DNA of 64,000 bases. Origin: Eledone cirrhosa (Eukaryota). The position numbers and the translations under genes are program-made. A model generated the notes under the pieces. The model searched no databases. It saw nothing but the letters and a program-made list of their open reading frames with translations, and was not told the DNA's origin. The stretch is taken from contig OZ024751.1 in NCBI GenBank assembly GCA_964016885.1, positions 7,316,001 to 7,380,000 of the forward strand, in the 5' to 3' direction. Positions 628 through 50,084 of the stretch are shown here, piece by piece (the stretch's first letter is position 1; each line of letters opens with the position of its first letter).

Positions 628-964
628 TCCCCACCAACACCCCACTCTCCAGAGCGTGAAATTAATAAACATTCGTTCTACTGCCTCTCTGTTTTGTTCC
701 TGTTCAAATTTTTCCATTATATATATATATATATATATATATATATATATATATATATAAGTATGTACACGTACATACATATATGGATACAGACGTACAG
801 TAGTATGTATATATATATATACATACATGCACACATATATATATGTACGTATGGATTCACCGAACATTTATTATAATGCTCAGTGTGTTTGTAAACAAAC
901 ATCCCATATTAAGCCGTAGTGTCTAGCAACCATCGTTGCTCGTTTGTTCAACACAGACAAAGGA

Positions 965-1007
965 ACGCTGTACTAGTTTCATGCTTATTAACTATCGTCA
1001 GCAACGT
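965..1007 (-). ncRNA. Hammerhead ribozyme, family A (stem II mutated)
   Basis: Reverse complement: ACGTTG CTGACGA TAGTTAATAAGCAT GAAAC TA GTA CAGCGT. Confidence 0.7.
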
Positions 1008-1678
1008 ATACCTTTCAGCGAGATTGTTGAACGTATATACTTACCTTATGCATATTAAGGCTGAGTAGCCTAATTTGTATATCGAGTGAGTTAATCGGCC
1101 GGGTGCACCGAAAACGATAAACGGAAAAAAATGAAAGAAATTTCATTTCCCACTCTTAGTAGGGCTGTTACTTAAATATAATTATGTACACATATATACA
1201 TATATGTATACAGACGTACAGTAGTATGTATATATATATACATACATGCACACATATATATATATATATGTACGTATGGTTTCACCGAACATTTATTATA
1301 ATGCTAGGTGTCTTTGTAAACAAATATCCCGTTTAAGCGGTAAGACACTACGGCTTAATACGGGATGTTTGTTTACAAACACACCGAGCATTATAATAAA
1401 TGTTCGGTGAATCCATACGTACATATATATATGTGTGCATGTATGTATATATATATACATACTACTGTACGTCTGTATACATATATGTATATATGTGTAC
1501 ATACTTATATTTAAGTAACAGCCGTACTAAGAGTTGGAAATGAAATTTCTTTCATTTATTCCGTTTATCGTTTTCGGTGCAACCGGCTGATTAACCCACT
1601 CGATATGCAAATTAGGCTACTCAGCCGTCAATATGCATAACGTAAGTATATACGTTCAACAATCTGGCAGGAAGGTAT

Positions 1679-1721
1679 ACGTTGCTGACGATAGCTAATA
1701 AGCTTGAAACTAGTACAGCGT
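1679..1721 (+). ncRNA. Minimal type-I hammerhead ribozyme, family A
   Basis: Stem I ACGTTG/CAGCGT; core CTGACGA (1685-1691); stem II AGCT-AATA-AGCT closed by a U.U pair; GAAA; palindromic ACTAGT stem III; GUA triplet (cut after 1715). Confidence 0.8.
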
Positions 1722-2960
1722 TCCTTTGTCAGTGTTGAACAAACGAGCAACGATGGTTGCTAGACACTACGGCTTAATACGGGATGTTTGTTTACAAACA
1801 CACCGAGCATTATAATAAATGTTCGGTGAATCCATACGTACATATGTATATGTGTGCATGTATGTATATATATATATACATACTACTGTACGTCTGTATA
1901 CATATATGTATGTACGTGTACATACTTATATTTAAGTAACAGCCGTACTAACAGTGGGAAATGAAATTTCTTTCATTTTTTCCGTTTATATATATATAAA
2001 TTAACTAGAAAATAGAGTTTTGAGACGCGAGTGTATTAGGATTCTCAGGAAATGTGAAAATTCAGCGTATGGAAGCTCACAGAACAGCAAAATACCGTCG
2101 AAGCGGCGTTGGGTAAAATATTACTTCAAGGGACAGAGATCAGCAACTAGATGTGAGTTGACTCGAAACAAAGGAGAGTTTGACATCTGAAGAGCATATT
2201 TTAATGTTTGTGACCTGTTCACTCCATAGGTTAGGTAACGTAAAATACCAGAGTAGACACAAAGTTATTTGCTTCAGTACATCGCAAGTAAATGGCGACC
2301 TCAATTTAAAGACCAGCACTCGAGTTTAGGCCACATTTAATGTAGCAATACTGTGCACAGCATCCACTATCTGCATTTATTATGCACAATCGATGCATGT
2401 GGCTTCATCAACAGGTTTCGCCTAATCAATAACAAATCGATCGACAAAATTCGATTCCAGGCCGTGTCGACTATGACAGTGAATGTGACAAGCAACACGG
2501 TAGTACATTAGCAACTGAAATCCAACGCGTCATCCCAACGCCGTCAACCGATTGGCCACTGTTTGAGAAAGTTACGCGACGTTAGGAGTCGAAATTCAAA
2601 TAGTGCTGCTCCAGCCATAAGCACTCTCCAAATCTCAAACAAAGTAACATGCGAACACACACACACACACACACACACACACTTACACACACACACACTT
2701 ACACACACACACACACACACACACACACACACACACACACACACACACACATATGTGTATGGGGGGTGGGGTGGGGTGAAAAAAGAAGCGTGAACTTTTG
2801 TACATTTGTACTTGACGACATTTTTTTCGTTTTCCGTGTTACTAGTCAGGCATTTGTGATTTTATATTACTTATAAATTAAATATGAAAAACATTTTAAT
2901 CATTTCTCACCACCACCCCTCTCACTCTCTCAATATATATATATATATATATATGTATAT

Positions 2961-3318
2961 TAGAAAGTGAGATTTTTTTTACAAGTTGAAAAATAACCGA
3001 GGTGTCCTACACGAGTGAAAATATAAAGAAAAAGAGATGAAATCGAAAATGCAACTGGAGTCTTATTTAAAAACAAATATATATATATTTATTTGGTTCC
3101 TTTACCGGTTTCGCAGTTCTTCTGCTTTTGAAAAGTAGAGTTGAGATGGAGGGTCTGTGGTTTTTCTCACATGTGAGAAAAACCACAGACCCTCCATCTC
3201 AACTCTACTTTTGAAAAGCAGAAGAACTGCGAAACCGGTAAAGGAACCAAATAAATATATATATTTTAAAAAAAAATAAGACTCCAGTTGCATTTTCGAT
3301 TTCATCTCTTTTTATTTA
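2961..3318. mobile_element. Fold-back palindromic element with U3:A8 hammerhead in each arm (family B)
   Basis: Near-perfect palindrome centred on CTCACATGTGAG (3171/3172). The same family occurs at 30808 and 38484, all starting TAGAAA(G/C)TGAG after (TA)n. Confidence 0.85.
3208..3243 (+). ncRNA. Minimal hammerhead, U3:A8 variant (family B)
   Basis: CTT TTGAAAA GCAG-AAGAA-CTGC GAAAC CG GTA AAG. The mirror copy at 3100-3135 (minus) has G5->C. Confidence 0.72.
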
Positions 3319-3475
3319 TATATATATATATATATATACTCTGAGATTGTGTCGGTGTAAAATAACGGTAAACATTTACTAATAGACTAAATCCAGCAAT
3401 GTAACAGATACTATGTATCTGTGTATCTTGCCTTATTGGATCTGCAGATTTGGTAGAGTCAAATGCTAATAGATC

Positions 3476-3510
3476 CTGATGAGGACCAGTTCAGTTCAAA
3501 ATGCGCATCC
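3476..3510 (+). ncRNA. Degenerate hammerhead motif
   Basis: CTGATGA GGAC-CAGTTCA-GTTC AAA ATGCGCAT C: G12->A and poor stem I, but stem II and the palindromic stem III are retained. Confidence 0.45.
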
Positions 3511-48170: not shown

Positions 48171-48674
48171 ATGTACACGAATATATAATTATACATATAA
48201 TTAATTAAATGTTGGTCAGAAGCGAAGTCAATGCAGACAGGCTGTCATGCAGACATATATTATAAACGCGCGACGTTATAGCTATGTATCTATCTAAAAA
48301 GACAGATTACGGAAGAGAGAGGAATGTCGGATTGTGTATATTATATATAATAAAGTACCAGTAATGTAATTTCTGGCCTAGTGCCAAAAATAGAAACACT
48401 TATACTTCTTGTTTTATACAACTGTCAATAACATGTTTATGCATGTATATAAACGTATATTTACGTATAATAGAATGCAGTAGTAACATGTACATATTAA
48501 ACTATCACTTATTTATGCTACTGTCACTATATAAATATATATATGAATGCATATATAGGGTATTTTGCAATACACTGTATGTTTAATTAAAAGCATTTCG
48601 AAGACCTTAGGCTATTGTTTTAGAGTAGTGACAGTCTCACTTACTTTAAATTTTCAGCAAACAAAGGGAGATAA

Positions 48675-48719
48675 AGCTGACAGAGCTCTGTTTCGTACTT
48701 TTTGGTACTTATCAAAGCT
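48675..48719 (-). ncRNA. Intact hammerhead, U3:A8 variant, family E
   Basis: Reverse complement AGCT TTGATAA GTAC-CAAAAA-GTAC GAA ACAGAGCTCTGT C AGCT. Confidence 0.85.
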
Positions 48720-49012
48720 AAGTACTCCACCTGTTTGCTGACAATCATGAATGTTTGATTCTTATAGAATTCTAGTAATAATCAGGAACTGATTATACAG
48801 AGCGGTTGCCGGTCAAGCTTTTAATTAAGCATACATTGTATTGCAAAATACACTATATATACATTCATATATATATCGCTATTTCAGACAACCAATTCTA
48901 ATTTTAAATTTCTGCTTGACCGGCAACAGCTCTGTATAATCAGTTCCTGATTATTCCTAGAATTCTATAAGAATCAAACATTCATGATTTTCAGCAAACA
49001 GGTGGAGTACTT

Positions 49013-49057
49013 AGCTTTGATATGTACCAAAAAGTACGAAACAGAGCTCTGTCAGCT
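49013..49057 (+). ncRNA. Hammerhead family E (A9->U mutated)
   Basis: AGCT TTGATAT GTAC CAAAAA GTAC GAAACAGAGCTCTGTC AGCT. Confidence 0.7.
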
Positions 49058-49333
49058 TTATCTCCCCTTGTTTGCTGAAAATTTAAAGTAAGTGAGACTG
49101 TCACTACTCTAAAACAATAGCCTAAGGTCTTCGAAATGCTTTTAATTAAGCATACAGTGTATTGCAAATTACACTATATATACATTCATATATATATCGC
49201 TATTTCAGACCACCAATTCTAATTTTCAATTTCTGCTTGACCGGCAACCGCTCTGTATAATCAGTTCCTGACTATTACTAGAATTCTATAAGAATCAAAC
49301 ATTCATGATTATCAGCAAAGAGGTGGAGTACTT

Positions 49334-49378
49334 AGCTTTGATAAGTACCAAAAAGTGCGAAACAGAGCTATGTCAGCT
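49334..49378 (+). ncRNA. Hammerhead family E
   Basis: AGCT TTGATAA GTAC CAAAAA GTGC GAAACAGAGCTATGTC AGCT. Confidence 0.8.
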
Positions 49379-50084
49379 TTATCTCCCCTTGTTTGCTGAA
49401 AGTTTAAAGTAAGTGAAACTGTCACTACTCTTAAACTATAGCCTAAGGTTTCCGAAATACTTTTAATTAAGCATACAGTGTATTGCAAAATACACTATAT
49501 ATAGATTCATATATATATATCGCTATTTCAGAGCACCTATATATATATATATATATATATATATATATATATATATATATATATATATATATATACGCAC
49601 ACTATATATATATATATATATATACACAAACACTATATGTACATATACACGCACACACACAGGTAGCGAAGTCAATGCAGACAGTCAGACATAGAGAGAC
49701 ATATTATAAGAGCGTGACGTTATAGCTATGTATCTAACTAAAAAGACAGACTAGGAAAGAGAGAGGAATGTCGTATAACCGGAAGTGTTGACATTTGAAC
49801 ATTTTAAAGAAGTGAATATTTAATTAAACAATAACATATCTTTAATCTTTTAATGAAAGTTAGTAGACAAAAATCGTTCACTTTCTTACTAGGAAAATGT
49901 TACATCTATGGTGCAAGTTTGGTACGGTTTGGTCCAGACGGTTAGCGAAACGTTTGTTACATACATACGGGCGTCAGATTTATTAATATATATATATATA
50001 TATATATATATGTAGGAGGTGAGTTATGTTGATTTAAAACTGCACTATCAACAAGTGTTTTTTAGCCTTCATATCATGTTCTCC

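What the first reader, a model, noticed from the sequence alone, without database searches (positions are those of the whole stretch)
757..49535. Shared divergent fold-back architecture across unrelated elements
Seen: elements at 757, 2961, 11389, 15279, 15889, 25970, 30808, 38484, 38886, 41176 and 48528 all join two arms 5'-to-5' relative to the HHR/ORF sense strand. Several junctions show short microhomology (AGG at 16017, AAGC/GCTT at 48816, GGATCC at 41232). Established: Penelope insertions often carry an inverted terminal copy. Inference: one PLE-type integration mechanism (cDNA snap-back or two opposed priming events) made all of them, linking the non-coding units to PLE machinery.
Basis: partly seen in the sequence, partly recalled or inferred. 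Interest (0 to 1): 0.75.

Follow-up and report, generated by a model that had tools for sequence, protein, structure and literature searches.

The report
Head-to-head Penelope and retrozyme insertions
The mirror-image repeats are real back-to-back insertions of Penelope-like jumping genes and their short ribozyme-bearing passengers, a layout already published for this class, and each pairs one long with one short end, likely because the element's enzyme starts two DNA copies, one from each strand of the target.

Summary
Confirmed, and mostly known. All 11 named elements join two arms 5'-to-5' when oriented by hammerhead (HHR) or ORF. They are 7 families, not 11 unrelated elements: a Neptune-type PLE, a Hydra-type PLE, a short HHR family related to the Neptune 3' end, and four non-coding HHR units. 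A twelfth palindrome (40620) is also divergent; none was convergent. Junction overlap is modest (0-4 nt): AGG is right, AAGC/GCTT is only GC, GGATCC is not an overlap. Not in the finding: in 10 of 10 elements with both outer ends, the arms stop at different 3' points (tail+ and tail-), and the short end usually sits on an internal TA run. In four elements neither arm lies wholly within the other, which favours two opposed primings over one snap-back. Public runs show the same head-to-head joints and two TA-bound ends, so this is no assembly artefact. Head-to-head arms, a one-sided tail, (TA)n targets and retrozymes as non-autonomous PLEs are all published. What is added here is that the PLE integration scar is also seen on tandem retrozymes.

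The parts
752..1342 (-). Element 757, left arm (short 3' end at 752); tandem HHR unit, period about 419 nt; HHR core at 1001
1343..1989 (+). Element 757, right arm, about 1.5 monomers; HHR 1685-1715; tail about 1935-1989; 6-nt loop, no overlap
2961..3171 (-). Family B left arm with tail (about 2961-3022); HHR core at 3132 with one mismatch; zero-spacer palindrome centre at 3171/3172
3172..3321 (+). Family B right arm, short end; U3-A8 HHR 3211-3240
11390..14812 (-). Neptune-type PLE, near full-length unit, short 3' end at 11390; open frame 14533-12500 (RT + GIY-YIG, CX4CxxC linker), broken N-terminal coding to about 14800; HHR remnant 11544-11514
14813..15005 (+). Inverted copy of the Neptune 3' end with an internal deletion, plus tail (about 14975-15005); start approximate
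15280..15397 (-). Element 15279 left arm (Neptune 3' end, short end)
15394..15546 (+). Element 15279 right arm with tail; TTAA shared by both arms, 5 nt 3' of the family's predicted HHR cut
15894..16018 (-). Hydra-type family, element 15889 left arm (short end); HHR 15955-15915 with CAGAAGA core
16016..17657 (+). Element 15889 right arm with about 92-nt tail; starts in the last EN codons; AGG overlap; HHR 17503-17543; another repeat inserted at 16977-17363
25972..27976 (-). Hydra-type PLE, element 25970 left arm with tail; broken RT-thumb and EN coding 27976-27212 (CxCX5C linker)
27977..28139 (+). Element 25970 right arm (short end); HHR core at 28078
30808..31006 (-). Family B left arm with tail
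31007..31072 (+). Family B right arm, cut off at its internal TA tract
31073..32476 (+). Second Hydra-type PLE 3' piece (broken EN, 3' UTR, U3-A8 HHR core at 32372) replacing the end of the 30808 right arm
38484..38657 (-). Family B left arm with tail
38657..38797 (+). Family B right arm, short end, reaching about 19 nt further 5' than the tail+ arm (non-nested)
38886..39462 (-). Retrozyme 38886 left arm; period 593 nt; HHR 39207-39128
39463..40328 (+). Retrozyme 38886 right arm, about 1.46 monomers; HHRs at 39582 and 40175; not nested with the left arm in either register
41114..41237 (-). Element 41176 left arm with a presumed tail (41114-41174, single copy, not confirmed as element DNA)
41236..41308 (+). 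Element 41176 right arm, short end; HHR core at 41241
48535..48818 (-). Retrozyme 48528 left arm; HHR 48715-48679; closer to the inner monomer of the right arm (12 shared sites against 4)
48817..49537 (+). Retrozyme 48528 right arm, about 2.25 monomers of 321 nt; HHRs at 49017 and 49338; GC overlap
40620..40977 (.). Not in the finding: divergent palindrome with an outward-pointing HHR on each arm (long stem II); left arm runs on past 40620
37930..38360 (.). Not in the finding: (TA)n-bound unit with 43-50-nt inverted ends, extension on the left arm, HHR 3' half at 38093 (+); tentatively divergent
9786..10918 (.). Not in the finding: (TA)n-bound palindrome of a tandem unit (period about 542); arms end at different points; no HHR found, not oriented
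29995..30793 (.). Not in the finding: older (TA)n-bound inverted pair with an extension on the left arm; not oriented
11190..11365 (.). Not in the finding: zero-spacer palindrome between TA tracts; arms end at about the same point; not oriented

Best explanation
These are head-to-head insertions of Penelope-like retroelements and short hammerhead-bearing RNAs, likely made when the Penelope protein cuts both strands of a (TA)n target and starts one cDNA from each cut. Shown in the sequence: outward-pointing arms, (TA)n flanks, two different 3' ends per insertion, and 0-4 nt of overlap at the centre. Shown in vitro for a lizard PLE (PMC11167929): both strands are cut and extended, and RT starts at two sites whose spacing is the tail; the dimer is a structure prediction. 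Inferred here: one cDNA starts at the distal site (tail+ end) and the other at an internal UA-rich site where the target's TA end can pair (tail- end). Both run toward the RNA 5' end, stop at or near the same place or one stops early, and are joined bluntly or through 1-4 nt, then filled in. The non-coding units would be copied in trans by PLE proteins of the same genome; which clade serves which unit was not determined.
For: 11 of 11 divergent, 7 of 7 families. Different 3' ends in 10 of 10 elements with both ends; the same long and short ends recur across copies of three families. Short ends lie on an internal alternating TA run of 3-10 nt in the 9 arms where the script placed the break properly (7 named, 2 extra); at 41176 the overlap is only about 1 nt by hand. 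Four elements are non-nested (11389, 38484, 38886, 41176), so neither arm can be a plain copy of the other. Partner arms share donor-specific changes in family B (7 sites against 0 and 0). In public runs the family-B stretch gave 6 listed opposite-strand joints, all head-to-head by geometry, and TA-bound ends at 3021-3026 (3 contig sets) and at the long end. Literature.
Against: Four elements are nested (757, 15889, 25970, 48528) and three are undecidable (2961, 15279, 30808). Centres with loops of 0-9 nt (757, 2961, 15279, 30808, 41176) are what snap-back predicts. Asymmetric deletion at palindrome centres (recalled) could turn nested into non-nested, easily for 38484 and 41176, and the 11389 right arm has an internal deletion. 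In 48528 the left arm matches the inner monomer, a full period from the long end. In the lizard assay both strands used both start sites alike and priming needed no homology. Microhomology excess is weak (p 0.04-0.07). One window, 7-8 families.
Confidence: 0.6

Rival explanations
1. Still PLE integration, but by one priming plus snap-back. A single cDNA starts at the tail+ site, folds back at its 3' end, copies itself, and is joined to the second target end where an internal TA run pairs with (TA)n. Later asymmetric deletions at the centre make some elements look non-nested.
For: Explains one tail per insertion with no further rule, the TA run at short ends, the tiny loops in 5 elements, 4 nested elements, and the 48528 left arm matching the inner monomer.
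Against: 11389 would need a 3.3-kb deletion from the tail+ arm, and 38886 (arms 98.6% alike) a 136- or 457-nt deletion. Zero-spacer centres with TTAA shared by both arms (15279) cannot form as a hairpin loop. A PLE protein extends both strands in vitro.
Confidence: 0.28
2. Self-priming on an antisense RNA template makes the palindrome before insertion, as proposed for rotifer Penelopes.
For: Proposed in PMC3846280 to explain head-to-head bias; fits short palindromic centres.
Against: Does not predict two fixed 3' ends that match sense-strand RT start sites, nor spacers of 1.4-3.3 kb.
Confidence: 0.05
3. Two independent insertions of the same family into one (TA)n tract happened to face apart.
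For: The families are abundant (7130 contigs in one run) and target (TA)n.
Against: No TA tract lies between the arms; no convergent pair was found; partner arms share donor-specific changes; ends are always one long and one short.
Confidence: 0.03
4. The palindromes are assembly or amplification chimeras.
For: No read set was shown to span these exact junctions; no genome was held.
Against: Arms differ by 1-13%, ends are family-specific, a later repeat sits inside one arm (16977-17363), and independent contigs and raw reads show like joints at other positions.
Confidence: 0.02

Closest known systems
Canonical EN+ PLE insertion unit (Arkhipova et al. 2013, PMC3846280; Craig et al. 2021, PMC8557442)
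   Same: Inverted 5'-truncated copy at the 5' end, head-to-head most frequent, palindromes at the junction, tail at one end only, HHR in the pLTR, (TA)n targets for Neptune and Hydra, pLTRs sufficient in trans.
   Different: Tails here measure about 20-170 nt against the published 30-40; the long/short pairing held in 10 of 10; target-site duplications cannot be read in (TA)n.
PAc (Poseidon of Anolis) in vitro system (Frangieh et al. 2024, PMC11167929)
   Same: Both target strands cut and extended, AT-rich targets, two RT start sites that define the tail, uncut HHR RNA used as template (arms here hold intact HHRs).
   Different: The parts read (1-2 of 4, plus a term search) do not tie this to inverted genomic arms; priming there is homology-free, whereas short ends here sit on internal TA runs.
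Animal non-LTR retrozymes (Cervera and de la Pena 2020, PMC7229834; Li et al. 2026, bioRxiv 10.64898/2026.07.22.740005)
   Same: Non-coding tandem units of a few hundred nt, one type I HHR per monomer (757, 38886, 48528, 28469), argued to be non-autonomous PLE derivatives.
   Different: Term searches of both texts found no inverted or head-to-head retrozyme layout, and none for the tail in Li et al.. Their evidence is co-occurrence and sequence kinship; here it is the integration scar. Cervera and de la Pena 2014 (PMC4209133) did note HHR pairs 100-700 bp apart on opposite strands in Schistosoma.
L1 twin priming (recalled, no call)
   Same: Two opposed primings, arms joined 5'-to-5', short microhomology, second primer pairing internally.
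   Different: L1 arms come from non-overlapping parts of one RNA and have no fixed second start; here the arms overlap and form palindromes with two family-fixed ends.

Membership tests
EN+ PLE (elements 11389, 15279) | RT followed by C-terminal GIY-YIG in one ORF | tested here: met
   Pfam RVT_1 E 5e-7 and GIY-YIG E 2e-6; 864 homologs among 7999 scored, best 59% identical
Neptune clade (11389) | CX2-5CxxC linker before GIY-YIG and CCHH motif | tested here: met
   CDRPNCGIC linker; C546, C551, C554, C590, C593, H612, H629 invariant in 22 sequences; definition from PMC8557442
Neptune clade (11389) | RT phylogeny groups with Neptune rather than Nematis | not tested
   No clade-labelled reference set was at hand
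Hydra clade (15889, 25970, 31073, 50348) | CxCX5C linker, no CCHH, (TA)n targets, HHR | tested here: met
   CNCRNRADC at 27212-27604 and CSCRV*SEC at 52248; definition; linker decayed at 31235
Hydra clade | Homology or phylogeny with curated Hydra proteins (RWK, DKT motifs) | tested here: inconclusive
   No Pfam hit; 0 of 146 candidates at E 0.001; frames are broken
PLE insertion unit | Inverted 5'-truncated copy, head-to-head | tested here: met
   11 of 11
PLE insertion unit | Tail at one end only | tested here: met
   10 of 10 with both ends; tail unconfirmed as element DNA for 41176; lengths exceed 30-40 nt in most
PLE insertion unit | Target-site duplication | not testable with these tools
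   Flanks are (TA)n; no empty allele at hand
Non-LTR retrozyme (757, 38886, 48528) | Tandem non-coding monomers with a type I HHR in each | tested here: met
   Periods about 419, 593 and 321 nt; HHRs at 1685, 39582/40175, 49017/49338; no ORF of 120 aa or more in these units
Non-LTR retrozyme | Self-cleavage and monomeric linear or circular RNA | not testable with these tools
   Needs a cleavage assay and RNA data
MITE or DNA-transposon foldback element | Terminal inverted repeats ending at the same base on both sides | tested here: not met
   Arms end at different points and carry HHRs or PLE coding sequence

The most novel reading that the evidence does not exclude
PLE integration is a built-in twin priming: a protein dimer on one RNA must use both start sites, one per target strand, so every head-to-head insertion pairs a tail+ with a tail- end. 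Tandem retrozymes with 320-590-nt monomers carry their own pair of start sites and go through the same reaction. This would explain the inverted arm and the tail as one event and give direct mechanistic proof that retrozymes use PLE proteins.
Probability: 0.35. Interest if true: 0.55.

Novelty: new member of a known kind. Interest (0 to 1): 0.27.

Why it matters
How PLEs make their inverted arms and tail is still called unresolved (PMC8557442), and which machinery moves animal retrozymes rests on co-occurrence and sequence kinship. A genome this dense in head-to-head insertions offers a cheap test of both: count end pairing and nesting per family. The layout itself is known, so the value is a testable rule and a good study system, not a new kind of element.

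Tried and rejected
No whole genome was held, so the genome-wide tally could not be run. Self-BLAST without masking and the repeat finder were swamped by (TA)n. Rfam gave hairpin-driven miRNA hits below threshold and two sub-threshold HH9 hits at 28494 and 28960 among the 150 of 269 rows shown; a strict CTGANGA scan missed the variant cores. A CTGACAA...GAAA look-alike at 11410 (+) was rejected: the real HHR remnant is on the ORF strand. A fixed link between junction and HHR cut was rejected: only 15279 is within 5 nt; others lie about 47-200 nt away. An apparent excess of change in the inner left monomer of 757 (20/166 against 3/165) was dropped, because the whole-arm alignment shows even divergence (5, 3, 7, 6, 3, 2 per 100 nt). 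Four-way site counts were uninformative for the Hydra and Neptune arms (1/0/0 and 0/0/0). The end-homology script misplaced the break for 2961, 38484, 41176, both long ends of 757 and 48528, and 9786; those rows were not counted. Pair 4502-4552/4870-4920 and the SINE-like pair 46039-46234 have TA tracts between the copies and were set aside as separate insertions. The family-B motif had 0 matches in metagenome contigs; the Neptune protein gave 1 weak, unrelated-looking locus in prokaryote genomes. Of 79 metagenome PLE loci (best 80 of 405, scan stopped at 21 of 64 parts), 14 had an inverted repeat: 5 with a copy upstream of the ORF inverted to sequence at or past the end of the match, 3 small downstream hairpins not orientable, 6 upstream only. 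Only L079 is a clear whole unit; its tail status is unclear. Most contigs were too short. No RNA holder was listed. The host was not identified; a cephalopod is my recalled guess from the repeat content, and named protein hits come from a bivalve and bivalve-symbiont assemblies.
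Full report
Setting. The window is AT-rich animal DNA with about 10.8 kb of masked microsatellite, LINE remnants (RT + APE at 18346-21372) and many short repeats. No genome was held. The host was not identified; a mollusc is suggested by protein hits, and a cephalopod is my recalled guess.

Observation. After masking, inverted arms appear at all 11 named places. I oriented them with type I hammerhead motifs, which here often have variant cores: CTGANGA (757, 41176, 28469), TTGANAA, the U3-A8 swap already known in PLE HHRs (PMC4209133 section 5; family B, 11389, 38886, 48528), and CAGAAGA (15889, 25970). 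The scan found 11 cores against a mean of 0.6 in 20 shuffles. Where an ORF is present it agrees with the HHR strand. All 11 are divergent. They fall into 7 families (p 0.008 for 7 of 7; 0.004 with 40620 as an eighth). Of five further palindromes, 40620 is divergent, 37930 probably so, and three could not be oriented. None was convergent. Five HHR or PLE units have no inverted arm, so the layout is common but not universal.

What the elements are. 11389 is a near full-length PLE: RT and GIY-YIG, a CX4CxxC linker and CCHH residues, so Neptune-type by the motifs in PMC8557442; full-length relatives are about 750 aa and their N-terminus maps to about 14800. 15279 is a short pair of its 3' ends. 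15889 and 25970 carry broken coding sequence with a CxCX5C linker, Hydra-type by section 11 of the same paper; homology searches did not confirm this. Family B (2961, 30808, 38484) is non-coding and resembles the Neptune HHR region (77% over 62 nt). 757, 38886 and 48528 are tandem HHR monomers of about 419, 593 and 321 nt, which fits non-LTR retrozymes; 41176 is a single short HHR unit.

Junctions. Using other copies in the window as natural reference: TTAA at 15279, AGG at 15889, GC at 48528, none at 30808 and 38886, none at 757 (read; one search misplaced that anchor), and about CC at 41176 by inference. Four junctions had no usable reference. The excess over chance is weak (p 0.07 for 6, 0.04 for 7).

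In 10 of 10 elements with both outer ends, the two arms stop at different 3' points (30808 lost its right end to a second Hydra-type piece). The long and short ends recur across copies: family B long at 2961, 30808, 38484 and short at 3321, 38797; Neptune short at 11390, 15280 and long at about 15005, 15546; Hydra short at 15894, 28139 and long at 17657, 25972. If each end chose freely at even odds, 10 of 10 has p 0.001, but copies of a family are not independent. The short end lies on an internal alternating TA run of 3-10 nt in the 9 arms that the script placed properly; 41176 is an exception. 11192, unoriented, may be a same-end case. This is the PLE tail, longer here (about 20-170 nt) than the published 30-40.

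Outside evidence. window:2961-3171 was laid on 4 of the 23 listed runs at 80% likeness: 7130, 34 and 15 contigs and 2871 raw reads. The joint table lists 6 opposite-strand joints (4 single contigs; 2 in raw reads with 123 and 20 reads from 2 starts each). Each has one side at 3166-3171 and 31 or more letters on the shorter side, so both pieces must run toward the element's 3' end: head-to-head. Loose ends into (TA)n pile up at 3021-3026 in all three contig sets, and TA-flanked long ends appear too. Limits: tables are truncated, the kinds in table 5c are unlabelled, tail-to-tail joins through (TA)n would be hard to see, 3 of the 6 sit at the edge of the stretch, and this locus's own junction was not shown. 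Among 79 metagenome PLE loci, L079 is a whole unit with an outward-pointing HHR arm upstream of the ORF; most contigs were too short.

Mechanism. The top strand of such an insertion reads flank, antisense arm, sense arm, flank. One cDNA folding back can only give a second arm that lies inside the first. That holds for 757, 15889, 25970 and 48528. It fails for 11389 (3.4-kb arm without tail, 0.2-kb arm with tail), 38484 (19 nt), 38886 (136 or 457 nt depending on register) and 41176 (7-9 nt, tail unconfirmed). Two cDNAs primed from opposite target strands at two start sites explain all cases, and a lizard PLE protein does cut and extend both strands and start at two sites (PMC11167929). I put this at 0.6. 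Snap-back with later central deletion remains at 0.28, because five centres have loops of 0-9 nt and palindromes lose their centres (recalled). Under two primings the tiny loops need both cDNAs to stop at a shared point such as the RNA 5' end; the family-B hot spot at 3166-3171 fits but is not proof. Partner arms share donor-specific changes (7/0/0), so both arms come from one donor under either model.

Known work. PMC3846280 (passages): head-to-head is the most frequent arrangement, junction palindromes, tail on one inverted pLTR, pLTRs sufficient in trans, antisense self-priming proposed. PMC8557442 (passages and section 11): inverted 5'-truncated copy, tail often at one end only, (TA)n bias, non-autonomous PLEs, mechanism still open. 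PMC11167929 (parts 1-2 of 4 and a term search). PMC4209133 (passages and section 5): HHR pairs on opposite strands 100-700 bp apart. PMC7229834 (passages): PLEs the strong candidate to mobilise retrozymes. bioRxiv 10.64898/2026.07.22.740005 (parts 1-3 of 5 and a term search): retrozymes as non-autonomous PLE derivatives. Six searches listed no paper that, by title, abstract or the parts read, states obligatory long/short pairing, nesting, or head-to-head retrozymes; subscription papers and supplements were not covered. Four earlier notes of this scan describe the same layout in other genomes as ordinary; they are unchecked and not independent support.

Verdict. Real, correctly read, largely known. 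New members of a known kind, with one useful addition: the PLE scar on tandem retrozymes and a countable end-pairing rule. Interest 0.27.

Noticed in passing
window:40620-40977: Twelfth divergent palindrome, with an outward HHR on each arm whose stem II region is about 80 nt long.
   Followed up: partly
window:15394-15397: The 15279 junction (TTAA) starts 5 nt 3' of the family's predicted HHR cut; no other element shows this.
   Followed up: partly
window:15955, 17503, 28078: HHR core CAGAAGA (U4 to A) kept in three arms of the Hydra-type family; activity unknown.
   Followed up: no
window:31073-32476: A second Hydra-type PLE piece begins exactly at the internal TA tract of the 30808 right arm; later insertion with deletion, or a template switch.
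   Followed up: partly
window:28469-29307: Direct dimer of a 466-nt HHR unit (99% alike) with no inverted arm.
   Followed up: no
window:50348-52930: Third Hydra-type PLE, broken, + strand, with 51554-51712 repeated at 52933-53092; no inverted arm seen.
   Followed up: no
window:2961-3171: Family-B junctions cluster at 3166-3171 in public runs and in window copies, suggesting a fixed RNA 5' end about 35-40 nt before the HHR; one contig in run X4 runs on 205 letters past that point.
   Followed up: partly
window:16977-17363: Abundant short interspersed repeat (copies near 7527, 34126, 35665, 41400, 42798, 48345, 56931, 58562) inserted as a dimer inside the 15889 arm.
   Followed up: no
window:46372-48191: Two related blocks of an AT-rich tandem repeat flanking a unique stretch.
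   Followed up: no
window:18346-22193: Long APE-RT LINE copy, + strand, between TA-rich tracts.
   Followed up: no
L079:3613-5869: PLE in another host with the same outward-pointing HHR arm upstream of the ORF (97% over 214 nt).
   Followed up: partly
P0030, P0042, P0050, P0053, P0092, P0097: PLE proteins filed under bacterial symbiont names in NCBI; probably host DNA in those assemblies.
   Followed up: no
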